The notes under the pieces: generated by a model
The model's database searches: none
What the model was told of the DNA's origin: nothing
Seen by the model: only the letters and a program-made list of their open reading frames with translations
Made by a program: the position numbers and the translations under genes
Shown here: positions 2,855-58,102 of the stretch, piece by piece
How positions within the stretch are numbered: the first letter of the stretch is position 1
How the letters are laid out: each line of letters begins with the position of its first letter
NCBI GenBank assembly: GCA_937888365.1
Contig: CALBFA010000101.1
Location: 54,035-118,034, forward strand
Direction: 5' to 3'
Source of the DNA: an uncultured Fidelibacterota bacterium
GTDB taxonomy: Bacteria; Fidelibacterota; UBA8477; JABMPR01
Length of the DNA stretch: 64,000 bases

Positions 2855-3571
2855 TTAAAAATTTCCACCCACATTACGTAACAAAATCTCCTCTTGTACT
2901 GCATGATTTTCGCTTGTTAAGGCAGAAACAATGGCATGTACAACATCTTCAGGTTTAAGCATTTTACTAAACGGTAAATTTTTGCTTCCTTCAATTTTTT
3001 CCCACCAACTCGATGCAACGGCTCCTGGATGTATACCAATAACTCTTATACTATATTTTCTTAGCTCTTCTCGCATTACTTGCGTAAGACCATGCAATCC
3101 AAACTTAGAGGCGCAATAGGCCGAGGCATTTTTAAAAGGCTGTAATCCAGCCACAGAATTGATATTTATAATTGTTCCTGATTTTTTCTTTTTTAAGAAT
3201 GGAATAATTTCTTGGCTCATTAAAAATGGGCCTGTCAAATTTGTATCTATCATACGATTCCAATCTTCAAAAGTCGTATCCTCGGTATAGGCAAAATGAG
3301 CTACGCCAGCGGCATTGATTAATATTTCAGGCTGTCTATCAACCGTAAACTCTTTTGAAAAAAAGTGTTGCACGTCCTTTTTCTTTCGCACATCCAGTGG
3401 GTAGATATTTATATCCCATGGCAATTCTTTTTTTAAAATATTCAATTTTTCTTTATTCCGAGCAACCGCCCAAATTTCGCCCCCTAATCGACCTAATTCT
3501 TGGCATAACATCTTCCCTATTCCTTCGCTCGCTCCTGTGATGATAATTCTTTTTTTTTGTAGGGTGTTCAT
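2855..3571 (-). CDS. Short-chain dehydrogenase/reductase (SDR) family oxidoreductase
   Basis: TGASEGIG glycine-rich NAD(P)-binding motif, and the YxxxK catalytic motif in YCASKFG. Confidence 0.8.
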   Translation of the reverse strand: MNTLQKKRIIITGASEGIGKMLCQELGRLGGEIWAVARNKEKLNILKKELPWDINIYPLDVRKKKDVQHFFSKEFTVDRQPEILINAAGVAHFAYTEDTTFEDWNRMIDTNLTGPFLMSQEIIPFLKKKKSGTIININSVAGLQPFKNASAYCASKFGLHGLTQVMREELRKYSIRVIGIHPGAVASSWWEKIEGSKNLPFSKMLKPEDVVHAIVSALTSENHAVQEEILLRNVGGNF

Positions 3572-48097: not shown

Positions 48098-48535
48098 ATG
48101 AAAAACCAAATCAACATTAATCGCGTCGCCATATTAGTAGTTCTGTTGTTGTGTACAAGTCCCTTTGCTTTTGGACAGGCTCTTGATGATCATGATTTGA
48201 TTTTACAAACGCAAGACATCCTTCGACACAATGGCATTAATATTGGCAATACGGGTATCCGTATTCAAAATTTAAATGATAAACGAAGCTTAGTCATAAA
48301 TTTAAGTGGACGACGAACGATCATTGTCGATATGGTTTACAATACGTTTTATAATGTTGGCGGGGTTATACAAAAGGCAAAAGAGCCTATTGATCAAATT
48401 GTTATCAATGCATCTGCTCAATACAAAGGAACAGAAACATACTATTTTCAAGCATTGGCGAAACATGTTGAACAACTCTATAATAGGACCATATCAGCCG
48501 ATGAATTCATCAATAATTGTTTAATAATAAGATAG
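48098..48535 (+). CDS. Secreted hypothetical protein (cassette copy 1, gene A)
   Basis: Signal peptide. Paralog of 48861-49301 at roughly 35-40% identity, with shared blocks VINLSGRRTIIVD and IVINASAQYKGTETYYF. Confidence 0.55.
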   Translation: MKNQININRVAILVVLLLCTSPFAFGQALDDHDLILQTQDILRHNGINIGNTGIRIQNLNDKRSLVINLSGRRTIIVDMVYNTFYNVGGVIQKAKEPIDQIVINASAQYKGTETYYFQALAKHVEQLYNRTISADEFINNCLIIR

Positions 48536-48547
48536 GAGAGACATTTT

Positions 48548-48841
48548 ATGAACGGAACACTTAGGAAATTAAGTTTAACTTTGTTTTTAATCCCAAGCTT
48601 TCTTTTAGCTGCTTCACCCTTTGAAACATCTATTTGGATGCGCTATTTAGAAGGAATTGGATGGGCCATTGCGGCTTCAATCGGTTTTTCAGTTGGAGTT
48701 GCGATAGCGATTAAAGTCTTTGATTGGTTCTCAAGCGATATTGATGAGTGGGAAGAAATTTCGAAAGGCAATTGGAGCGTCGCGATGATTCACGTAGCAC
48801 TCATTGTCATGATAGGTTTACTTGTATTTAAAGTCATCTAA
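48548..48841 (+). CDS. Small two-TM membrane protein, DUF350-like (cassette copy 1, gene B)
   Basis: 97 aa with the motif KVFDWFSSDIDEWEEISKGNWSVAMIHVALIVMIGLLV. About 90% identical to 49314-49607. Confidence 0.6.
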   Translation: MNGTLRKLSLTLFLIPSFLLAASPFETSIWMRYLEGIGWAIAASIGFSVGVAIAIKVFDWFSSDIDEWEEISKGNWSVAMIHVALIVMIGLLVFKVI

Positions 48842-48860
48842 TTAACAACATGGGACATTT

Positions 48861-49301
48861 ATGAAATCTTCAAAATTAAGTATTTTTCTAATTTCTTTAT
48901 CGGTTTTTAGCTTTTTGTTGCCAAATGTTGCATTAGGACAAGAATACGATGACTACCAAATTATTACACATTCAAAAGAAGCACTCCAAAAACTAGGGCG
49001 CAGTATTGATGCTCCAAAAATGGAGATTCAAACATCGGCTGAAAAGGGACGTGTTTTAGTTATAAATGTAACAGGTAGACGTACTTTATTGATGGAAATA
49101 GCCTATAAAGCGTTTTTAGCAGGTGCTTCCGTTATTAAAGATGCTAAAAATCCTATAAACGAAATTGTCGTTATTGCATCTGCACAATATAAAAATGTAG
49201 AAACATTCTACTTTTCGTCTACGGCAGCTTGCTCAATTGATTTATTTAATCGTCTTATATCAATTGAAAAATTCACATCAGATTGTATTAATATTAACTA
49301 A
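48861..49301 (+). CDS. Secreted hypothetical protein (cassette copy 2, gene A)
   Basis: Signal peptide. Diverged paralog of 48098-48535. Confidence 0.55.
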   Translation: MKSSKLSIFLISLSVFSFLLPNVALGQEYDDYQIITHSKEALQKLGRSIDAPKMEIQTSAEKGRVLVINVTGRRTLLMEIAYKAFLAGASVIKDAKNPINEIVVIASAQYKNVETFYFSSTAACSIDLFNRLISIEKFTSDCININ

Positions 49302-49313
49302 TAAAGGAATATT

Positions 49314-49607
49314 ATGAAAATTCTAACAAAGAAAATGGTCGCTTTATTATTTTTCCTACCAACATTTTTGATGGCTGCTTCTCCCTTTGAGAAATCAATT
49401 TGGGTCAGCTATTTAGAGGGTATCGGCTGGGCTATTGCTGCTTCAATTGGTTTTTCGATTGGTGTCGCCATTGCTATCAAGGTTTTTGATTGGTTCTCCT
49501 CAGATATCGATGAATGGGAAGAAATTAAAAAAGGGAATTGGAGTGTTGCCATGATTCATGTAGCACTTATCGTTATGATTGGATTACTTGTTTACAAAGT
49601 AATTTAA
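49314..49607 (+). CDS. Small two-TM membrane protein, DUF350-like (cassette copy 2, gene B)
   Basis: 97 aa, about 90% amino-acid identity to 48548-48841. Most nucleotide differences are synonymous. Confidence 0.6.
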   Translation: MKILTKKMVALLFFLPTFLMAASPFEKSIWVSYLEGIGWAIAASIGFSIGVAIAIKVFDWFSSDIDEWEEIKKGNWSVAMIHVALIVMIGLLVYKVI

Positions 49608-49680: not shown

Positions 49681-49754
49681 GGCAGGGTAGCTCAGTCGGT
49701 TAGAGCGCAGGCTTCATAAGTCTGATGTCGGCGGTTCAAGTCCGCCCCCCGCTA
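49681..49754 (+). tRNA. tRNA with a CAU anticodon (tRNA-Met elongator, or tRNA-Ile2 if lysidine-modified). CCA is not encoded.
   Basis: D-arm GCTCAGTCGGTTAGAGC, anticodon stem-loop CAGGC-TTCATAA-GTCTG, T-arm GGCGG-TTCAAGT-CCGCC, acceptor GGCAGGG/CCCCGCT with an A4-C69 mismatch, discriminator A. Confidence 0.85.
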
Positions 49755-51565: not shown

Positions 51566-52621
51566 ATGGAACAATTAATTTCGGTACTCACAAAATATTT
51601 TAATTTTATGATTAACACGCCTCTTCTTATGAGCTTAGTCATTTTTCTTTTTACCGTCATTGCAGGTAAGTTTATACAAACTTTGATCAGTCGAGTATTT
51701 ACAAAACTAGCAAAAGACAGGCGAAGCGCTTGGAATTCTGAAATGGTAAGGGGTATTAACCAATCCATCTATTTATCAATTTTAGGTGCTGGATTTTTCT
51801 TTGCATTTTCTCAACTAACATTACCTGAATTAGCACATTTTTTTATAAACGGAATAATCAAAACTGTACTTATTATTACATGGGCTAAAACAAGTCAACT
51901 AATTATATATGAAACCTTAAAATGGTTTTCAAAACGTAAAAAACGTGGAATTGTAATTCAACCGTCAACGCTACCTTTTTTTGAAAATATTGCGTTTATT
52001 TTAATTTGGGGCGGGACCATTTATTTTACGCTTATTTCATGGGATGTTGATTTAACCGCATGGATGGCTTCTGCTGGTATTATTGGTATCGCATTAGGTT
52101 TTGCAGCTAAAGATAGTTTGGCAAATTTCTTTGCTGGTATTTTTATCATTGCCGATAGCCCCTATAAAATTGGGGATTTTATTATACTCGATGGTTCTGA
52201 ACGCGGTAAAGTTACGGAAATTGGTATTCGTTCTACACGCATGCTGACACCAGATGATGTCGAAATTACCATACCCAATTCAATTATTGGGAATTCAAAA
52301 ATTATAAATATTACGGGTGGTCCTTACGAAAAGAGTCGCGTCAAAGTGCAAGTTGGTGTTTCCTATAGCTCCGATATTGATTTAGTGCGAGAAATCCTTT
52401 ATAAAGTTGGTGCAGATTCGCCTCTTGCCGATCATGTGATTGAACCTAAAGTTCGTTTTATGGAATTTGGTGATTCATCTCTTAATTTCGAATTATGGGT
52501 CTGGGCGCAACCCGAGGATTTACTTCACGTTAAAGACGATTTAAATAGTGCCATCTTCAAAGCTTTTAAACAGCATAATATCACTATTCCGTTTCCTCAA
52601 GTTGTGGTGCACAAAGCCTAA
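51566..52621 (+). CDS. Mechanosensitive ion channel, MscS family
   Basis: Three TM helices plus the MscS beta-domain GIALGFAAKDSLANFFAGIFIIADSPYKIGDFI. Confidence 0.8.
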   Translation: MEQLISVLTKYFNFMINTPLLMSLVIFLFTVIAGKFIQTLISRVFTKLAKDRRSAWNSEMVRGINQSIYLSILGAGFFFAFSQLTLPELAHFFINGIIKTVLIITWAKTSQLIIYETLKWFSKRKKRGIVIQPSTLPFFENIAFILIWGGTIYFTLISWDVDLTAWMASAGIIGIALGFAAKDSLANFFAGIFIIADSPYKIGDFIILDGSERGKVTEIGIRSTRMLTPDDVEITIPNSIIGNSKIINITGGPYEKSRVKVQVGVSYSSDIDLVREILYKVGADSPLADHVIEPKVRFMEFGDSSLNFELWVWAQPEDLLHVKDDLNSAIFKAFKQHNITIPFPQVVVHKA

Positions 52622-52779
52622 TTAGCAACGAACTCACTATTTCTACATTAATCAATGATGTCTAACAAAAACGTTGTCGATTTACATAAATTCTAGACTC
52701 AGACTCTCTTCTATTTTCCGAATTTTTTAACTTTCAAAACAAGCCATTTCAACTACTTTCACTTCGCTATTAGACAATT

Positions 52780-52923
52780 GGCGGTGCAATGATGGAAGCT
52801 CGTGAAAATCGAGCACAGTCGCGCTACTGTAACCGAGGACAAACTCAACAAAGGCCACTATGATACGATGGGAAGGCGTTGAGATTTGGTTGATTCGGGA
52901 GTCAGGATACTTCATTACCGCCC
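52780..52923 (+). ncRNA. Candidate cobalamin (AdoCbl) riboswitch upstream of a TonB-dependent receptor
   Basis: Ordered conserved elements: GGTG-cAA near the 5' end, the hairpin GCTCG-TGAAAAT-CGAGC, CGCGCTACTGTAAC (consensus CCCGCCACTGTAA), GCCACT, GGGAAGGC, and the B12-box-like GAGTCAGGATAC. Closed by the 5' GGCGGT and 3' ACCGCC. Position matches the classic btuB-type arrangement. Confidence 0.55.
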
Positions 52924-53227
52924 TTAAATTCATAAACCTTCGCGAAAAAGGCAAAGAATTATCCTTCTCTTCCCACAACATTCCAATCAAACTCTCCTAA
53001 GGCTTTTCGTATTTTTTCTAAGTTTCCATACTGTCATTTGGGCGATTCCGACCATCTCAGGGCAAATTGTCGACGCTAATAACAATGGCATTTCCTTTGT
53101 CCAAATTCAAAATCTCAAAACAAACGTTTGGGATACATCCGATATAAATGGGTATTTTAGTGTAAGCGGAAATATTTCTTTAGGAGATGTCTTTAAGCTG
53201 TCAAGAATTGGCACTATCACTGATACG

Positions 53228-55039
53228 GTGCTTATTCAAAATTTCAATTATCAAATCTGGCGTTTAAATTTCGATGTCATTAGGCTTAATGATATTACGG
53301 TGGATGCAGACTATCAGCAGCAGGAATTACGAAGTCCGAAATACCTGATTTCAAATCATGACGAACCTGTTTCAATCCGATCCTCGACTTTTTTTAAGCA
53401 ATTACCTGGCGTAACGATTAAACGCTATGGTGGACCTGCAGGCATTAGTCAAATAAGCTCAGACGGCGGCTCAGCTTCTCAAACCAAGATTCTTCTGAAC
53501 GGCTTTGATTTGACATCCGCTCAAAATGGTAGCACGGATATTTCCCAATTACCGCCTCAACTTTTTAATACAATTTCTTTTGATTTAAGCCAAAGACAAA
53601 AACAATCTGGTATGAGTGATGGCGTAATCGGCATCCAAACTGATTTTGATAAACGATATATTTCTATGACGGCTGGGAGCTTTGGTGAAAGGCAAATCTC
53701 TGGCGCATGGAATTTGAATACCGAAAATAAAAAGCTCTTTTTTGCGGGAGGACACTCAGAATATGAGGGAAATTATCCTTCGATTTGGCGAGATATTGAG
53801 ACATCAAGACGAAATAATAACTTTAGGCAGGATTACGTTTTTTCCCAAGGGCAACTCCTTATTCCAAACCTCGCCTATTTACGCATCATTGGCCTAGAAT
53901 CGCAACAAAATCGAGGTGTAGCAGGACAATCATGGAATCCCGATACGGTTTCCAGGCGCTCTGATAAATTATCCCTGTTGGGATTTCAATCAGCAATGAT
54001 GTTTAAAAAGGGCAGCCTTTTTGGGCAACTCATGCGACGGAGTTCGGAAGAATATTTTGATCAAAAGTTGGGTATGCTAATTCGCCACTACCAACACAAT
54101 AGTGAAACAAACCTTATTCATCTCCGAGGGTCAATTGAGTATAATGCTATTAAATTTATTGCATCGAGAGAAGATCGCTTTGAATCGTTATCGTCGGACG
54201 CCGTAGAGAATAATGTCCATCGTCGCATTACTCAAATGACGGCGAATCTAATAGTTTCTCTTGCTTTAGGGTTTCGTGGAACGGCAAATATTCATTCCCA
54301 TCAAGAAAACTTAAAATCTCAACTTACACATTATGGCTATTCAATATCCTGGGAATCAAAGCTCCCCTATTTGCCCGAAATTTTTCTAAGTCAAGAGTCG
54401 TATTACCGCATCCCAACACTAAACGACCTGTACTGGCAACCAGGCGGTAATCCTGCCCTATTGGCAGAGACAACACAGTCACACCTGGCTTCATTAAATT
54501 GGATATTTCCCTCTACTCATTTTCGAATTTTGGCTTATGGAAAAATCAGCCAAAATTTAATTCAATGGATGCCGCAAAACGCCTATTGGCGACCCGTCAA
54601 TATTCTGGAAGCCAAACGCTCCGGTATCAAAGCATCGGGGCATTTTCAAATACATTCAAATTTAGAATTCAACATGCATTACGGATGGCATCATTCAGAA
54701 AGTTTGAGTGGCGATTTTCATAATGGCAAAGCCTTACGATTTGCACCTAATCAAACGGGAATGGGCAATTTCCGGGCATCATGGCATCGCCTAAATGCAA
54801 CATTCCAAGCCGATTACATCGCATCTCGCATCAGTATGTATGGCTACCCTGAAGATATCATTTTGCCTGAAGCGACATTCTATTCCCTTGGAATCGGTAC
54901 AACTTTGCAGCCCATTTCCATCCATCTAAAAATAGATAATATTTCAGATGTTTATTACGAAACAATTTTAGGCTACCCAGAACCACCTCGATCTTTTTCT
55001 ATAAATATTCTCTATAATTTTAGGAACCCTGAAGAATAA
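53228..55039 (+). CDS. TonB-dependent receptor-like outer-membrane protein (BtuB-like by context). The N-terminus probably extends upstream: the frame is open from 52928.
   Basis: Plug domain (LPGVTIKRYGGPAGISQISSDGGSASQTKILLNGFDL) and a beta-barrel. Upstream, in the same frame, lie a carboxypeptidase-regulatory-like domain (SGQIVDANNNGISFVQIQ...NGYFSVSG) and a hydrophobic signal-like segment, with no canonical start codon. Confidence 0.6.
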   Translation: MLIQNFNYQIWRLNFDVIRLNDITVDADYQQQELRSPKYLISNHDEPVSIRSSTFFKQLPGVTIKRYGGPAGISQISSDGGSASQTKILLNGFDLTSAQNGSTDISQLPPQLFNTISFDLSQRQKQSGMSDGVIGIQTDFDKRYISMTAGSFGERQISGAWNLNTENKKLFFAGGHSEYEGNYPSIWRDIETSRRNNNFRQDYVFSQGQLLIPNLAYLRIIGLESQQNRGVAGQSWNPDTVSRRSDKLSLLGFQSAMMFKKGSLFGQLMRRSSEEYFDQKLGMLIRHYQHNSETNLIHLRGSIEYNAIKFIASREDRFESLSSDAVENNVHRRITQMTANLIVSLALGFRGTANIHSHQENLKSQLTHYGYSISWESKLPYLPEIFLSQESYYRIPTLNDLYWQPGGNPALLAETTQSHLASLNWIFPSTHFRILAYGKISQNLIQWMPQNAYWRPVNILEAKRSGIKASGHFQIHSNLEFNMHYGWHHSESLSGDFHNGKALRFAPNQTGMGNFRASWHRLNATFQADYIASRISMYGYPEDIILPEATFYSLGIGTTLQPISIHLKIDNISDVYYETILGYPEPPRSFSINILYNFRNPEE

Positions 55040-55094: not shown

Positions 55095-56402
55095 ATGAAA
55101 CACATTCTACTCCTATTAATACTCACTTTGTTGGCATTTGCTCAAGACGGTCTCTTCGTCTTATGCGAAGGCAATTATGGCTCGACGAATGCGTCTCTCT
55201 GGTCTCTGGACATAAATAATTCTTCGGCTTCGATTCCAGCGTTTATAGGATTTGATGCCTCTCAGATGGGCGACACAGGACAATCCATGAAAATCGTCGA
55301 TTCTAAAATGTACGTTTGTATGAATAACAGCCACAGTATCGAAATTTTTAGTGTCACTGATAACGCCAATCCAACTCATGTCCATACAATTGACGTTTCT
55401 GGTGTGTCACCTCGATACTTAGCGATATTGGACAATTCCGCCTATGTTACATCATGGAATTTGAACGCTATTCTGAAGATTAATCTTGATAATTATCAGA
55501 TCGAGGACACGATAAACGTAAACGGAATGCCTGAAGATATTTTGACTTATGACGGAAAACTCTATGTGTCGCTAACGATGAATGCAGATTGGTCCAGTTC
55601 AAATCAAGTATTGGAATTAGCAAATACCAACGGTGAATGGTCGACTCTAAATAGTTATAATGTAATACCTGGGCCAGGTCGTTTGCTTATTCATGATGAC
55701 AATCTTTACATTGCCAGCACGTATTATAATGATGCATGGGAAACGTTTGCAGGGACCTCTCGAATCAATCTTCTAACAGGTGATGTTCTCGCTGTTGATT
55801 ACGGCCTTAGTTATAGCTATGGAGGCGATCTAGCCATCATGAATAATAGTATATACCGTTCTACGTTCACTGGCGCTGCTATGATGGATGATAGTCTTCA
55901 ACTTGTATCAGATGGTGAAATCAGTGATATGGAAAATGTCTATATGTTCTCAATTATTAATGATAATTTCTATTTTGGTCTTACAGACTATGTGGCTCCT
56001 GATAATATCCGTGTTTATAATGCCGATGGCGAATTTATTAATAATTTTGTTGTGGGAGCGCTACCGACTGAAATTGTATTAAGTGTGGCATCTAATGCCG
56101 TAGCAGCGACACCACTGCAGGCAAGAGAATTTGAAATTAATGGAAATTATCCGAATCCATTTAATCCAAATACGATGATTGATTTTGAAGTGGAAAAAGA
56201 GACACGTTTATCAGCTCATATAATTGATATTAATGGACATATCATCAGTGAATATCCCACTCAAACTTTCGCAGCGGGGCATTATAGTATCAACTGGAAT
56301 GGTCTCACTTTTGACGGAGAACCTCTACCAAGTGGGATTTACTTTGTAAAAATATTTACCAATAATAGCTCCGATATTTTGAAAATAACCTTATTAAGAT
56401 AA
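55095..56402 (+). CDS. Beta-propeller (YVTN-type repeat) protein with a T9SS C-terminal sorting domain
   Basis: Signal peptide MKHILLLLILTLLAFA. C-terminal NGNYPNPFNPNTMIDF...SGIYFVKIF is a T9SS C-terminal domain. Confidence 0.6.
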   Translation: MKHILLLLILTLLAFAQDGLFVLCEGNYGSTNASLWSLDINNSSASIPAFIGFDASQMGDTGQSMKIVDSKMYVCMNNSHSIEIFSVTDNANPTHVHTIDVSGVSPRYLAILDNSAYVTSWNLNAILKINLDNYQIEDTINVNGMPEDILTYDGKLYVSLTMNADWSSSNQVLELANTNGEWSTLNSYNVIPGPGRLLIHDDNLYIASTYYNDAWETFAGTSRINLLTGDVLAVDYGLSYSYGGDLAIMNNSIYRSTFTGAAMMDDSLQLVSDGEISDMENVYMFSIINDNFYFGLTDYVAPDNIRVYNADGEFINNFVVGALPTEIVLSVASNAVAATPLQAREFEINGNYPNPFNPNTMIDFEVEKETRLSAHIIDINGHIISEYPTQTFAAGHYSINWNGLTFDGEPLPSGIYFVKIFTNNSSDILKITLLR

Positions 56403-56434
56403 TTCTCGAAACTTTTCATAACTATAAAAATAAT

Positions 56435-56458
56435 CCCACTTCATTGTGGGATATTTTT
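56435..56458. terminator. Terminator hairpin between convergent genes
   Basis: CCCAC-TTCATT-GTGGG followed by ATATTTTT. Confidence 0.5.
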
Positions 56459-56488: not shown

Positions 56489-58102
56489 TCAATTCATAAA
56501 CGCCCATGTTACGGTTAAAACATGGAAGCTTGATTCTGTGGGAGTATTGGTCAATGAAATAAATGATTGTGGCAGATTAAGGGCAGAAATATTCGTTAAA
56601 AGGGGATCATAATTGGCGTTATAATTTGTATAATTGATACTTAATGTTTGAATTACAGCCGTGATATTTGCATGGACAAGGTGCACGTTATCACGATTAA
56701 AAATAAAGGGTGACGGTTCTACGCGCAGTTTACCCGGATTAAATACTCCTGAATTTACATTGAAATAATGTTCTCCCATAAGACCTGGGAAAATAAGCAA
56801 GGCACCGGATCGCAAACGAATAGGCAAGTAGATCGACCACGTTAATTTTTCATCCGCAAAATTGAATATTTCATTCTCATGCTTTAATAGTTGGTCATAT
56901 TGTATGGTAAATAATTTTCTTGAGTCCGTCTGTATTGCATAACGTGCTTTCCAGCCCATTGCCCCATGGTTTGTTTCCCAAAATTGAATTGATTGCGAAC
57001 CAAATTGATCAAATTGGTAAAATACGTTTAGGGAGGAAACAGTCTGTAAATGTGCCGTCACTTCTTTGATATCAGTCTGTAGTAGCGGTTTCGTTAGGAA
57101 ACTGAGTTTAAATTTATTCCATTTTTTTTCGATTCTAATATCGGGACTTATTTCAACATTGTGATGATAAAGGCTTTTAAAACCCACGTTAAAGGCATCA
57201 AAATGACGGATATTCATTTTGAAATTGGCATCAAACACAGGGTAAGTCAAACGCGTACTATCATTTTTAAAATGTACGCCACCGCTTAAGAAATCCATTG
57301 ATTCAGACCTATTATAAAAGCCCATCAAAGCGATTGTTCGGGTTTCATGAGATTCATTTCCAAGCCATTTTCGAGACCCAACTCTCTCCCACAGTTCAAA
57401 GTTGCGAATCCATTTTTGAGTTGAATCATGAATTTGAATACCCCCCGTCGCATACTGATGCTCATACACTGATAATCCGAGAATCCCAGTTAGTCCCAAT
57501 TCATCATAATTTAAATCATTGAAAGGAAGCAATGCTTTATGCAATTGTGCCGTCAATCGCATGGATTTTTTGTCCTCTTTGACGATCCATTGTGCACGAT
57601 GATCTTCCACGCTATAAGAATCAGAACCAATATATCTTGGGAATTTGCGTATCTCATGTAATTGACCATAATATTGATGGGGTGAAATTGAAGTATGGTA
57701 CCAAATCCCAAAGTTCATAATATTATAATCGCCTTGTTTATAATGTACTTCTAACCAAGTGGCGGCTGTATCGTTTGAGGATGTCAACGGCACGTCTAAA
57801 CCCATTTTAGATGAAGTATAAGGCAGCGATCCGGCAATCCAGATAGCTTGAAGCGAACTCCCTGTGGGATTTAAATCGAGGCTTTGATTCCAATGATTAA
57901 GCGTAAAACCTTCGCTACCATAGGGTCGGGAGACATCCCAGGTTCCAGCTTCTCCGACACGTACACCAAAATTAGGTTCAATATTCGGTGCGTAACTCGG
58001 AAATAAAAGTTGTCCATTCAAATTTAAATAAAACAGAGACAGCAGAATCAATCGAACTGCATGATTTATTCTCGGCTTTGTAAATTCTAGGGATTTATAC
58101 AT
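56489..58102 (-). CDS. Hypothetical protein with an N-terminal signal-like segment. Possibly an outer-membrane protein.
   Basis: 537-aa ORF with no recognisable catalytic motifs. Confidence 0.4.
   Translation of the reverse strand: MYKSLEFTKPRINHAVRLILLSLFYLNLNGQLLFPSYAPNIEPNFGVRVGEAGTWDVSRPYGSEGFTLNHWNQSLDLNPTGSSLQAIWIAGSLPYTSSKMGLDVPLTSSNDTAATWLEVHYKQGDYNIMNFGIWYHTSISPHQYYGQLHEIRKFPRYIGSDSYSVEDHRAQWIVKEDKKSMRLTAQLHKALLPFNDLNYDELGLTGILGLSVYEHQYATGGIQIHDSTQKWIRNFELWERVGSRKWLGNESHETRTIALMGFYNRSESMDFLSGGVHFKNDSTRLTYPVFDANFKMNIRHFDAFNVGFKSLYHHNVEISPDIRIEKKWNKFKLSFLTKPLLQTDIKEVTAHLQTVSSLNVFYQFDQFGSQSIQFWETNHGAMGWKARYAIQTDSRKLFTIQYDQLLKHENEIFNFADEKLTWSIYLPIRLRSGALLIFPGLMGEHYFNVNSGVFNPGKLRVEPSPFIFNRDNVHLVHANITAVIQTLSINYTNYNANYDPLLTNISALNLPQSFISLTNTPTESSFHVLTVTWAFMN

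What the first reader, a model, noticed from the sequence alone, without database searches (positions are those of the whole stretch)
52780..52923. Cobalamin riboswitch-like element upstream of a TonB-dependent receptor
The intergenic region carries, in the expected order, GGTG..AA, the hairpin GCTCG-N7-CGAGC, CGCGCTACTGTAAC (consensus CCCGCCACTGTAA), GCCACT, GGGAAGGC and a B12-box-like GAGTCAGGATAC, all closed by a GGCGGT/ACCGCC helix. A plug-plus-barrel TonB-dependent receptor (BtuB-like) lies directly downstream. The ORF caller's 87-aa minus-strand ORF (52727-52990) overlaps this element and is probably spurious.
Basis: partly seen in the sequence, partly recalled or inferred. Interest (0 to 1): 0.5.

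Follow-up and report, generated by a model that had tools for sequence, protein, structure and literature searches.

The report
B12 riboswitch controlling a btuB–btuG operon
This is a genuine, ordinary vitamin-B12 (cobalamin) riboswitch that most likely shuts off translation of a two-gene outer-membrane B12-uptake operon, and its one unusual feature is that the receptor gene has ATT where its relatives have a normal start codon.

Summary
Rfam RF00174 (Cobalamin) matches window 52794-52910 (+) at 73.4 bits (gathering score 31.5, E 3.4e-16). A 13-bp P1/P3 helix (52780-52794 / 52910-52922) closes the aptamer.

The two genes downstream match solved Bacteroides BtuB and BtuG structures, and a bidirectional terminator follows at 56433-56452. 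The riboswitch-receptor-BtuG layout recurs in 39 of 41 related loci, all attributable ones being Candidatus Neomarinimicrobiota.

The probable mechanism is the standard one. B12 binding locks a kissing loop between L5 (UCGCG, 52819-23) and the loop of a two-tier hairpin P13 (CGCGAAA, 52941-47). That hairpin buries the ribosome-binding site AAGG (52948-51) and the start codon. The loop pair co-varies across relatives.

Refinements:
- The receptor ORF starts near 52958, not at the called GTG 53228.
- No ATG, GTG or TTG is available. An in-frame ATT sits where the closest relatives have ATG, and it is identical in seven other assemblies, so it is not an error.
- The aptamer has the large P6 extension of class Cbl-I but lacks the P2 module.
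- The 87-aa antisense ORF is spurious.

Verdict: a new member of a known kind, of low-to-moderate interest.

The parts
52780..52922 (+). Complete cobalamin riboswitch aptamer, including the closing helix. P1 is 52780-85 / 52917-22. Its continuation into P3 is 52788-94 / 52910-16. There is no P2 hairpin between them.
   Evidence: RF00174 hit at 52794-52910, 73.4 bits, E 3.4e-16. The helix was read from the sequence. P2 is also deleted in relative L094, where 23 model positions are replaced by 1 nt.
52798..52814 (+). P4 hairpin, GCUCG-UGAAAAU-CGAGC.
   Evidence: Compensatory changes at 4 of its 5 pairs across 33 related aptamers.
52817..52825 (+). P5 (A17-U25, G18-C24) with loop L5, UCGCG (52819-52823). 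This is the aptamer-side partner of the kissing loop.
   Evidence: Rfam alignment. L5 type co-varies with the downstream hairpin loop across 39 loci.
52833..52898 (+). P6 (CCGA 52833-36 / UCGG 52895-98) with a large peripheral extension. The extension holds helix CUCAAC 52844-49 / GUUGAG 52878-83, GCCACU 52854-59 and GGGAAGGC 52870-77. This is the Cbl-I-type extension.
   Evidence: P6 pairs show 6-14 double compensatory changes. Class definition from PMC7367189.
52899..52910 (+). B12 box, GAGUCAGGAUAC.
   Evidence: AGUCAGGA is invariant in all 33 aligned relatives.
52927..52960 (+). Regulatory two-tier hairpin P13. Lower stem: AAUUC 52927-31 / GAAUU 52956-60. Upper stem: CCUU 52937-40 / AAGG 52948-51. 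Loop L13: CGCGAAA 52941-47, whose CGCGA is complementary to L5 UCGCG.
   Evidence: Local MFE fold. CGCGA in a hairpin loop arises in 21 of 5000 dinucleotide shuffles of 52924-53010. The same hairpin is present in L006, L085, L094 and L096.
52948..52951 (+). Shine-Dalgarno-like AAGG, forming the 3' arm of the upper P13 stem, 6 nt upstream of AUU.
   Evidence: SD-like 4-mers occur at -15 to -6 of 15/46 long-ORF starts against 8% background, and AAGG(A/G) recurs, for example before btuG.
52958..52960 (+). Inferred initiation codon AUU (ATT), in frame with the receptor and paired in the lower P13 stem.
   Evidence: The frame is open from 52928, with no in-frame ATG/GTG/TTG before 53228. ATT lies 17 nt after the L13 motif, where group C has ATG at 18-19 nt. 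It is identical in 7 independent assemblies.
52958..55039 (+). btuB-like TonB-dependent receptor, about 693 aa from the ATT. It comprises a signal peptide, a CarboxypepD_reg-like N-terminal domain, a plug and a barrel. Pipelines call only 53228-55039.
   Evidence: PDB hits are all BtuB. Pfam Plug, and a weak CarbopepD_reg_2. Homologue P0002 aligns from residue 23 of the extended translation.
55095..56402 (+). btuG-like surface B12-binding propeller protein, 435 aa. It has an ordinary signal peptide and a C-terminal type IX secretion sorting domain instead of a lipid anchor.
   Evidence: PDB hits to BtuG chains 8p97_B, 8blw_B, 8bmx_D and 8okv_B (E 2.5e-13 to 2.4e-9). Pfam DUF5074 and Por_Secre_tail at 34.9 bits.
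56433..56452 (.). Bidirectional intrinsic terminator closing the riboswitch-btuB-btuG unit, shared with the convergent gene 56489-58102.
52727..52990 (-). 87-aa antisense ORF, judged spurious.
   Evidence: No Pfam match. It overlaps the aptamer, P13 and the receptor start. No conserved counterpart in relatives.

Best explanation
Window 52780-52960 is the 5' leader of a two-gene operon, a btuB-like receptor (52958-55039) and a btuG-like gene (55095-56402), ended by a terminator at 56433-56452. The organism is probably a member of Candidatus Neomarinimicrobiota.

The leader contains a cobalamin riboswitch of Rfam family RF00174. It has the conserved four-way-junction core, the B12 box and the large P6 extension typical of adenosylcobalamin-sensing class Cbl-I, but no P2 module.

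Inferred mechanism, a translational OFF switch:
- When intracellular cobalamin (most likely adenosylcobalamin) binds, loop L5 (UCGCG) forms a kissing loop with CGCGA in the loop of hairpin P13.
- This stabilises P13's two stems.
- The upper stem holds the Shine-Dalgarno-like AAGG. The lower stem pairs the initiation codon.
- Ribosomes therefore cannot load, and synthesis of the outer-membrane B12 uptake pair falls.
- At low B12 the kissing loop is absent, the weak P13 (about -3 kcal/mol) breathes, and translation starts.

Translation of the receptor most likely starts at the near-cognate AUU 52958, or the adjacent AUC, which would give intrinsically low expression.

Shown here: family membership, gene identities, conservation of the arrangement, L5-L13 complementarity and covariation, and the reproducibility of ATT. 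Inferred: ligand identity, direction of regulation, SD use, and AUU as the functional start.
For: Family membership:
- RF00174 at 73.4 bits, E 3.4e-16.
- Aptamer helices P3, P4 and P6 carry compensatory changes in 10 of 17 consensus pairs across 33 related aptamers, and the window fits each helix.

Gene context:
- Downstream proteins match solved BtuB and BtuG.
- RF00174 lies upstream of the orthologous receptor in 38 of 40 relatives scanned, plus L001.
- A btuG-like gene follows in most.

Kissing loop:
- L5 UCGCG and L13 CGCGA are 5-nt complementary.
- CGCGA in a hairpin loop arises in 0.4% of shuffles.
- Across loci, L5 xCCCG pairs with loop CGGG(A)/GCGGG in about 30 loci. L5 UCGCG pairs with CGCGA in the window plus L006, L085, L094 and L096. 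No mixed combinations occur.
- The motif is unpaired in a hairpin loop in 33 of 39 local folds.
- The literature establishes the cobalamin-dependent L5-L13 kissing loop, with the RBS on stem-loop 13, as the regulatory mechanism common to all classes (PMC5028336; PMC7367189).

Ribosome-binding site:
- SD-like motifs are enriched 4-fold before long ORFs in this window, with AAGG(A/G) recurring.
- In relatives the 3' arm of P13 always carries AAGG(A/G) or GGGAG, 6-8 nt before the first start codon.

Start codon:
- No canonical start in any frame from 52946 to 52986. In-frame ATT lies 17 nt after the L13 motif, against ATG at 18-19 nt in the four closest platforms.
- P0002 aligns from residue 23 of the extended ORF.
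- ATT and the whole leader are identical in 7 further assemblies from other samples and assemblers.
- Orthologues already use weak starts often: ATG 12, GTG 6, TTG 3.

Output type: no intrinsic terminator lies between aptamer and ORF.
Against: - Single-sequence MFE folding of the leader is no better than shuffles (z = 0.39). That is usual for this tertiary-structure-rich class, but it gives no independent support.
- P13 in the window is weak (-3.3 kcal/mol).
- The L5/L13 covariation amounts to essentially one evolutionary event, shared by five related loci.
- CGCG is self-complementary, so L13 could also self-pair between molecules.
- AUU initiation is rare in bacteria and discriminated against by IF3 (PMC5499595). 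All eight assemblies are clonal, with 0 differences in 2.4 kb. They exclude error but say nothing about selection, so a recently fixed start-codon loss remains possible.
- Absence of canonical codons over the 90 codons from 52958 to 53227 has about 3% probability under the ORF's own codon usage. It is unusual but not extreme.
- Ligand and direction of regulation are untested.
- Without P2 the aptamer does not meet the full Cbl-I definition, so AdoCbl selectivity is an extrapolation.
Confidence: 0.72

Rival explanations
1. The riboswitch is intact, but the receptor gene has recently lost its start codon (ATG to ATT) and is no longer translated. The locus is an early pseudogene in a clonal population, and the riboswitch now regulates at most mRNA level or btuG.
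For: - There is no canonical start in 100 codons, an outlier among 45 long ORFs in the window, where the next largest is 31.
- The four closest platforms all have ATG at the equivalent place.
- All assemblies are identical, so there is no evidence of purifying selection on this allele.
- AUU is a poor initiator under IF3 scrutiny.
Against: - The 693-codon frame has no stop or frameshift in a 38% G+C genome.
- The aptamer, the kissing-loop complementarity and the SD are all intact.
- btuG and the terminator are intact.
- The same allele is recovered from eight samples across several projects.
- AUU-initiated genes such as infC are expressed at substantial levels (PMC5499595).
- U52960 extends the lower P13 stem by a pair with A52927.
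Confidence: 0.2
2. The main output is transcriptional. Ligand binding leads to premature termination, either Rho-dependent or at a cryptic terminator, rather than to direct occlusion of the ribosome-binding site.
For: - Several relatives carry a G+C hairpin plus T-run just after the first start codon: L006, L085, L094, L096, L018, L027, L024 and L101.
- Translational riboswitches commonly also reduce mRNA abundance. [quoted passage not shown]
Against: - No terminator-like site exists on the + strand between 52400 and 53400 in the window.
- The position homologous to the relatives' terminator is degenerate (AGGCTTTTCGTATTTTTT, with no stem).
- Rho dependence cannot be assessed from sequence. 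If present it would be secondary to translational repression.
Confidence: 0.1
3. The region encodes the 87-aa (84-aa as called) minus-strand protein, and the riboswitch resemblance is incidental.
For: Gene callers of JGI, ENA and Logan annotate an 84-aa minus-strand gene here.
Against: - E 3.4e-16 for RF00174.
- No Pfam match for the ORF.
- Antisense ORFs in relatives differ in position, length and frame.
- The ORF overlaps the conserved 5' end of the receptor ORF.
Confidence: 0.02

Closest known systems
Rfam RF00174 / class Cbl-I adenosylcobalamin riboswitches (e.g. T. tengcongensis, PDB 4GMA)
   Same: Four-way-junction core, B12 box, large P6 extension with the conserved GCCACU and GGGAAGGC (the adenosines that shape the adenosyl pocket), and an L5-L13 kissing loop.
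   Different: There is no P2 loop-stem-loop module between P1 and P3, so the Rfam hit is local, covering model positions 47-167. The P6 extension is compact at 66 nt.
E. coli btuB leader riboswitch
   Same: A cobalamin riboswitch directly upstream of the outer-membrane B12 receptor gene, repressing its translation. The E. coli part rests on established knowledge and on PMC3866643, listed.
   Different: Different phylum. The operon also contains btuG. The start codon is AUU rather than AUG. P2 is absent.
env8 Cbl-IIa riboswitch (Polaski et al. 2016, PMC5028336)
   Same: The regulatory logic is the same. L13 is presented on a stem-loop that carries the RBS, and the cobalamin-dependent kissing loop with L5 blocks ribosome loading. 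Both have a short single-stranded J1/13 linker.
   Different: env8 has a small P6 extension and prefers hydroxo- or methylcobalamin. Here the SD lies in the 3' arm of P13 rather than in the loop, and a second, lower stem pairs the start codon.
Bacteroides thetaiotaomicron B12 loci (riboswitch-btuB-btuG; Abellon-Ruiz et al. 2023, PMC10404256)
   Same: BtuB is adjacent to a BtuG beta-propeller under a B12 riboswitch, with sequence homology to the solved complexes.
   Different: Bacteroides BtuG is an N-terminally lipidated surface lipoprotein. The window's homologue has no lipobox and carries a type IX secretion C-terminal domain. No btuFCD or btuH genes are adjacent.
B. subtilis yvrC 'hybrid' cobalamin riboswitch (Chan et al. 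2020, PMC7367189)
   Same: It also mixes class features and so sits outside the simple Cbl-I/Cbl-II scheme.
   Different: The combination is the reverse. yvrC has P2 with a small P6 extension. The window has no P2 with a large P6 extension.
infC and pcnB (AUU-initiated bacterial genes)
   Same: A near-cognate AUU/AUC start preceded by an SD.
   Different: In infC the AUU is the sensor for IF3 autoregulation and is phylogenetically conserved. Here AUU is seen in one clonal lineage only, and its function is inferred.

Membership tests
Rfam RF00174 Cobalamin riboswitch | Covariance-model score at or above the curated gathering score (31.5 bits) | tested here: met
   73.4 bits, E 3.4e-16
Rfam RF00174 Cobalamin riboswitch | B12 box and conserved core motifs in order (GGAA..., CUACUGUAA, GCCACU, GGGAAGGC, AGUCAGGA) | tested here: met
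   The core motifs are invariant across 33 relatives.
Rfam RF00174 Cobalamin riboswitch | Helices of the four-way junction (P3-P6) supported by base pairing and covariation | tested here: met
   RNAalifold on 33 aptamers: P3, P4 and P6 with compensatory changes at 10 of 17 pairs. The P5-region pairs are invariant and so uninformative.
Rfam RF00174 Cobalamin riboswitch | L5-L13 kissing loop to a stem-loop in the expression platform | tested here: met
   UCGCG/CGCGA complementarity. 0.4% of shuffles give the motif in a hairpin loop. The two loops co-vary across 39 loci, though as essentially one event.
Rfam RF00174 Cobalamin riboswitch | Direct binding of a cobalamin and ligand-dependent gene control | not testable with these tools
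   Needs in-line probing or ITC, and reporter assays.
Rfam RF00174 Cobalamin riboswitch | Association with B12 transport, biosynthesis or B12-independent isozyme genes | tested here: met
   btuB-like and btuG-like genes lie downstream, conserved in 39 of 41 relatives.
Class Cbl-I (as defined in PMC7367189) | Large P6 extension (P7-P11) folding back on the core | tested here: met
   66-nt extension at 52833-52898 with GCCACU and GGGAAGGC, aligned to the model. The tertiary fold-back itself was not tested.
Class Cbl-I (as defined in PMC7367189) | Loop-stem-loop P2 module between P1 and P3 | tested here: not met
   Only 14 nt precede GGAA, and they pair with the 3' flank as one continuous helix. 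Model positions 1-46 are unaligned. The same deletion occurs in L094.
Class Cbl-II (as defined in PMC7367189) | Small P6 extension (loop or short hairpin) | tested here: not met
   The large extension is present.
BtuB (TonB-dependent B12 receptor) | Plug plus 22-strand barrel, with closest similarity to characterised BtuB proteins | tested here: met
   All 10 PDB hits are BtuB, covering the plug (119-250) and the C-terminal barrel (491-693). Pfam Plug at 29 bits. The full barrel topology was not modelled.
BtuB (TonB-dependent B12 receptor) | Transport of cobalamin | not testable with these tools
   Inferred from homology, the riboswitch and the BtuG neighbour.
BtuG (Bacteroidota surface B12-binding protein) | Beta-propeller homologous to BtuG, encoded next to btuB | tested here: met
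   E 2.5e-13 to 2.4e-9 to BtuG chains of 8p97, 8blw, 8bmx and 8okv. Adjacent gene, 55-nt gap.
BtuG (Bacteroidota surface B12-binding protein) | N-terminal lipoprotein signal with a lipidated cysteine and export signal | tested here: not met
   The N-terminus MKHILLLLILTLLAFAQDGLFVLCEGN has no lipobox. The first Cys lies in the conserved propeller motif. A Por_Secre_tail domain occupies residues 352-430.

The most novel reading that the evidence does not exclude
The regulated receptor is really translated from a near-cognate AUU that is itself base-paired in the lower stem of the riboswitch's P13 hairpin. Expression of the B12 receptor would then be gated twice: by cobalamin through the kissing loop, and by initiation fidelity (IF3 level, temperature, growth state) through the weak codon. 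This would be an extreme case of a trend towards weak start codons for this riboswitch-controlled gene, since 9 of 21 orthologues use GTG or TTG.
Probability: 0.45. Interest if true: 0.4.

Novelty: new member of a known kind. Interest (0 to 1): 0.27.

Why it matters
Practical value:
- It corrects the annotation of this locus in at least eight public assemblies. The riboswitch is unannotated, a spurious 84-aa gene is called over it, and the B12 receptor is truncated by 90 codons, which removes its signal peptide.
- It shows that the riboswitch-btuB-btuG module known from gut Bacteroides extends across the uncultured phylum Neomarinimicrobiota. That is relevant to who scavenges B12 in oceans and lakes.

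If the AUU start is functional, it would be a documented natural case of a riboswitch-gated gene using a non-canonical initiation codon.

The riboswitch itself adds nothing conceptually new.

Tried and rejected
- Single-sequence MFE folding of 52770-53010 gave a non-native fold no better than shuffles (z = 0.39). It was not used.
- The sigma-70 promoter scan found nothing convincing upstream of the aptamer, so the transcription start is unknown.
- The first genome-contig scan, with the single protein as query, found nothing. An alignment query was needed.
- The word-indexed protein search found only 5 homologues because the receptor is very divergent.
- I considered that the ATG at 52860, inside the P6 extension and preceded by AAGG, starts a translated 46-aa leader ORF ending at 53000, as in the M. 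tuberculosis metE aptamer ORF. I rejected this because the ATG is absent from all four closest relatives and lies in a conserved helix.
- I considered ATT 52928, the first codon of the open frame, as the start. It is less likely because it lies upstream of the SD and P13, and it would add a 10-residue highly basic extension with no counterpart in homologues.
- I considered sequencing or assembly error for ATT. I rejected this after finding seven further identical assemblies.
- I looked for more window-type platforms (CCTTCGCGA...AAGG) among all 160+ fetched loci. Only the four group-C loci and the window's own contig carry it.
- RNAalifold's 'P5' (ACAG/CUGU) differs from Rfam's 2-bp P5. All of its pairs are invariant, so the data cannot discriminate between the two.

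Full report
**1. Observation**

- GGCGGT 52780-85 and ACCGCC 52917-22
- Hairpin GCTCG-N7-CGAGC, 52798-52814
- CGCGCTACTGTAAC, 52820-33
- GCCACT, 52854-59
- GGGAAGGC, 52870-77
- GAGTCAGGATAC, 52899-910

A cmscan of the whole window against all 4227 Rfam families returns one riboswitch hit. It is RF00174 (Cobalamin) at 52794-52910 on the + strand, 73.4 bits against a gathering score of 31.5, E = 3.4e-16. A permissive rescan of 52600-53300 gave the same hit. The only other Rfam hit in the window is a tRNA at 49681-49754. The aptamer is a 50% G+C island in a 30% G+C spacer of a 38% G+C window.

**2. Anatomy of the aptamer**

The Rfam alignment is local and covers model positions 47-167 of 189. It includes these elements:
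- The P3 closing pair G52794-C52910.
- P4, 52798-52814.
- P5 with loop L5, UCGCG at 52819-23.
- The CUACUGUAA junction.
- P6, CCGA 52833-36 / UCGG 52895-98.
- A 66-nt P6 extension, which holds a perfect 6-bp helix (CUCAAC 52844-49 / GUUGAG 52878-83) and the conserved GCCACU and GGGAAGGC.
- The B12 box.

The unaligned flanks form one continuous helix. G52780-C52922 through U52785-A52917 pair, then comes a GC bulge, then A52788-U52916 through A52792-U52912, a U.U mismatch, and G52794-C52910. Only 14 nt precede GGAA, so there is no room for the P2 loop-stem-loop that the model expects at positions ~21-46.

This is not an artefact of the window. In the closely related aptamer L094 the model aligns end to end, with the 23 P2 positions replaced by one nucleotide. 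In L085 P2 is degenerate, and in L091 it is present.

Under the published scheme, Cbl-I is defined as a P2 module plus a large P6 extension, and Cbl-II has neither (PMC7367189). The window is therefore Cbl-I-like in the element thought to shape the adenosyl pocket, and Cbl-II-like at P1/P3. It is the reverse of the B. subtilis yvrC hybrid. The same paper notes that P2 contributes little to the binding site in the Cbl-I structure, so losing it is plausible without loss of function.

**3. Genes under control**

*The receptor.* The ORF list gives 53228-55039 (GTG, 603 aa), but the frame is open from 52928. The extra 100 codons encode a signal-peptide-like stretch (LLRLFVFFLSFHTVIWA) and a CarboxypepD_reg-like domain, with a weak Pfam hit. 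Homologue P0002 has that domain annotated and aligns from residue 23 of the extended translation over 96% of its length. All ten PDB sequence hits of the receptor are BtuB proteins, namely Bacteroides BtuB1/2/3 and E. coli BtuB. Pfam finds the Plug domain.

*The second gene.* The next gene (55095-56402, 435 aa) matches the BtuG chains of the solved BtuB-BtuG complexes at E 2.5e-13 to 2.4e-9. It also carries a C-terminal Por_Secre_tail domain.

*Boundaries.* A bidirectional terminator at 56433-56452 separates it from a convergent gene. Upstream lies an MscS-type channel gene ending at 52621. The regulated unit is therefore riboswitch-btuB-btuG.

**4. Relatives**

The receptor is very divergent. 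The best relatives are 30-35% identical, and every one with an organism name is a Candidatus Neomarinimicrobiota (Marinimicrobia/SAR406) MAG or SAG. I infer the window's phylum from this.

RF00174 lies just upstream of the orthologous receptor in 38 of 40 relatives scanned, and also in L001. A btuG-like gene follows in most.

An alignment of 33 of these aptamers with the window gives an RNAalifold consensus with P3, P4 and P6. Ten of 17 pairs keep pairing through changes on both sides.

The window's aptamer core is almost identical to four loci that I call group C: L006, L085, L094 and L096.

**5. Expression platform**

Downstream of P1 the window folds locally into a two-tier hairpin:
- Lower stem: AAUUC 52927-31 / GAAUU 52956-60.
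- Upper stem: CCUU 52937-40 / AAGG 52948-51.
- Loop: CGCGAAA, 52941-47.

CGCGA is the exact complement of L5 UCGCG. In 5000 dinucleotide shuffles of 52924-53010, CGCGA occurs in 2.6% and occurs in a hairpin loop in 0.4%.

Across the relatives the two loops co-vary:
- About 30 loci with L5 xCCCG have CGGG(A) or GCGGG in the downstream hairpin loop.
- The window and the four group-C loci have UCGCG with CGCGA.
- There are no mixed cases.
- The group-C/window state is probably one evolutionary event.

The complementary motif is unpaired in a hairpin loop in 33 of 39 local folds.

This is the L5-L13 kissing loop that published structures and genetics show to be cobalamin-dependent, to require L13 on a stem-loop, and to control ribosome access (PMC5028336). 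It is common to all classes (PMC7367189).

The 3' arm of P13 is AAGG, 6 nt before the inferred start. In relatives the same arm always carries AAGG(A/G) or GGGAG, 6-8 nt before the first start codon. SD-like 4-mers are enriched four-fold before long ORFs of this window, 15 of 46 against 8% background, and AAGG(A/G) is a recurrent form.

The lower stem varies in sequence but is kept in group C: UUCC/GGAA, UCC/GGA and CAUG/CAUG.

No intrinsic terminator lies between the aptamer and the ORF.

The best-supported mechanism is therefore a translational OFF switch. The ligand locks the kissing loop, P13 is stabilised, and the SD and start codon are occluded.

**6. The start codon**

There is no ATG, GTG or TTG in any frame from 52946 to 52986, and none in the receptor frame before 53228. 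A 100-codon stretch without a canonical start is an outlier among the window's 45 long ORFs, where the next largest is 31.

In-frame ATT 52958 lies 17 nt after the first base of the L13 motif. In the four group-C loci the receptor's ATG lies at 18-19 nt. A single T-to-G change at 52960 would restore ATG.

The leader (52622-53240) and the whole receptor ORF are identical, with 0 differences, in seven other contigs from other samples and assemblers: ERR2206786, SRR29660419, ERZ1283782, ERZ964650, SRR29660418, ERZ23486293 and ERZ887841. P0006 differs from P0001 only by M versus V at the miscalled GTG. Sequencing or assembly error is therefore excluded. Because the population is clonal, the data cannot show selection on the allele.

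Orthologues already use weak starts frequently: ATG 12, GTG 6, TTG 3.

AUU and AUC are known but rare bacterial initiators that IF3 discriminates against. Even so, infC is expressed at thousands of copies per cell (PMC5499595).

I judge AUU (or the adjacent AUC) initiation somewhat more likely than a freshly inactivated gene. The 693-codon frame, the aptamer, the kissing-loop complementarity, the SD, btuG and the terminator are all intact.

**7. The antisense ORF**

The 87-aa minus-strand ORF has no Pfam match. It lies wholly over the aptamer, P13 and the receptor's 5' end. It has no counterpart of conserved position, length or frame in relatives. It is spurious, though pipelines call it.

**8. 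Comparison and novelty**

This is a member of RF00174 by every testable criterion. In function it resembles the E. coli btuB leader and the Bacteroides riboswitch-btuB-btuG loci (PMC10404256). Its regulatory geometry resembles env8.

It departs in three ways:
- It lacks the P2 module, so it is not a textbook Cbl-I.
- The start codon is non-canonical.
- The BtuG partner is anchored differently.

None of these changes the kind of system. I rate it a new member of a known kind, with low-to-moderate interest.

**9. Confidence**

| Claim | Confidence |
|---|---|
| Cobalamin riboswitch | about 0.97 |
| Controls btuB-btuG | about 0.9 |
| Kissing-loop translational OFF mechanism | about 0.7 |
| AdoCbl as the preferred ligand | about 0.6 |
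| AUU/AUC as the functional start | about 0.5 |

Noticed in passing
window 55095-56402; relatives L004, L006, L015, L022, L087, L092, L095, L103 (long form) versus L001, L010, L013, L016, L017, L083, L090, L091, L094, L099 (short form): The btuG-like neighbour exists in two forms in Neomarinimicrobiota. A ~340-370-aa form has an N-terminal lipobox cysteine, as in Bacteroides BtuG. A ~430-450-aa form, the window's included, has an ordinary signal peptide and a C-terminal type IX secretion sorting domain (Por_Secre_tail) instead. Only one paper in the library, on an unrelated topic, mentions both BtuG and type IX secretion. A T9SS-anchored BtuG may therefore be undescribed.
   Followed up: partly
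L013, L016, L017, L022, L024, L025, L099, L101, L103 (also L018, L023, L001): In about a third of the related loci, the first ATG after the P13 hairpin opens a short leader ORF of 23-26 codons rather than the receptor. The receptor's own start (often TTG) lies 5-11 nt upstream of the leader's stop codon, which suggests riboswitch-controlled leader translation with termination-reinitiation coupling. A precedent exists for the M. tuberculosis ppe2 B12 riboswitch (PMC11260477).
   Followed up: partly
L006 ~2900-2930, L096, L085 ~2897-2926, L094 ~3000-3028, L027 ~968-994, L018, L024 ~2960-2997, L101 ~3022-3057: A G+C-rich hairpin followed by a T-run (intrinsic-terminator-like) lies after the riboswitch-controlled start codon. 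It sits inside the leader ORF or inside the first ~20 codons of the receptor, where it encodes a conserved 'RGFF'. This suggests translation-dependent antitermination layered on the translational switch. The window retains only a degenerate remnant (AGGCTTTTCGTATTTTTT, ~53000-53017) with no stem.
   Followed up: partly
L018 2944-3076, compared with L027: L018's receptor frame also has no canonical start after its leader ORF. Its close relative L027 has the leader fused in frame to the receptor. The two probably differ by an indel near the T-run, which could be a frameshift, a homopolymer error or recoding.
   Followed up: no
L014 ~1640-1700: L014 appears to have lost the P13/kissing-loop hairpin that its close relatives L013 and L017 keep (…CCACTGATTTTATTCGG… versus …CCACTGACTTTCGGGAGAAAAGGTCATG…). 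It may be a naturally deregulated allele.
   Followed up: no
window 52860-53000 (+): An ATG inside the P6 extension, preceded by AAGG at a 5-nt spacing, opens a 46-aa ORF that runs through P1 and P13 and ends 42 nt past the AUU. It is not conserved in group C, so it is probably fortuitous.
   Followed up: yes
window 48098-49607 (+): There is a tandem duplication of a two-gene module: a 145/146-aa protein with no Pfam match, followed by a 97-aa DUF350 membrane protein, twice in a row. A tRNA with a CAU anticodon loop follows at 49681-49754.
   Followed up: no
window 56489-58102 (-): A 537-aa ORF convergent on the btuB-btuG unit has a signal-peptide-like N-terminus and no Pfam match. It shares the bidirectional terminator at 56433-56452. 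Its function is unknown.
   Followed up: no
window 52622-53240 and 53228-55039; L164-L166, L169-L172: This locus is 100% identical over 2.4 kb in eight assemblies from several sequencing projects and assemblers. That indicates a clonal, repeatedly sampled population. The contig names suggest aquatic or lake metagenomes.
   Followed up: partly
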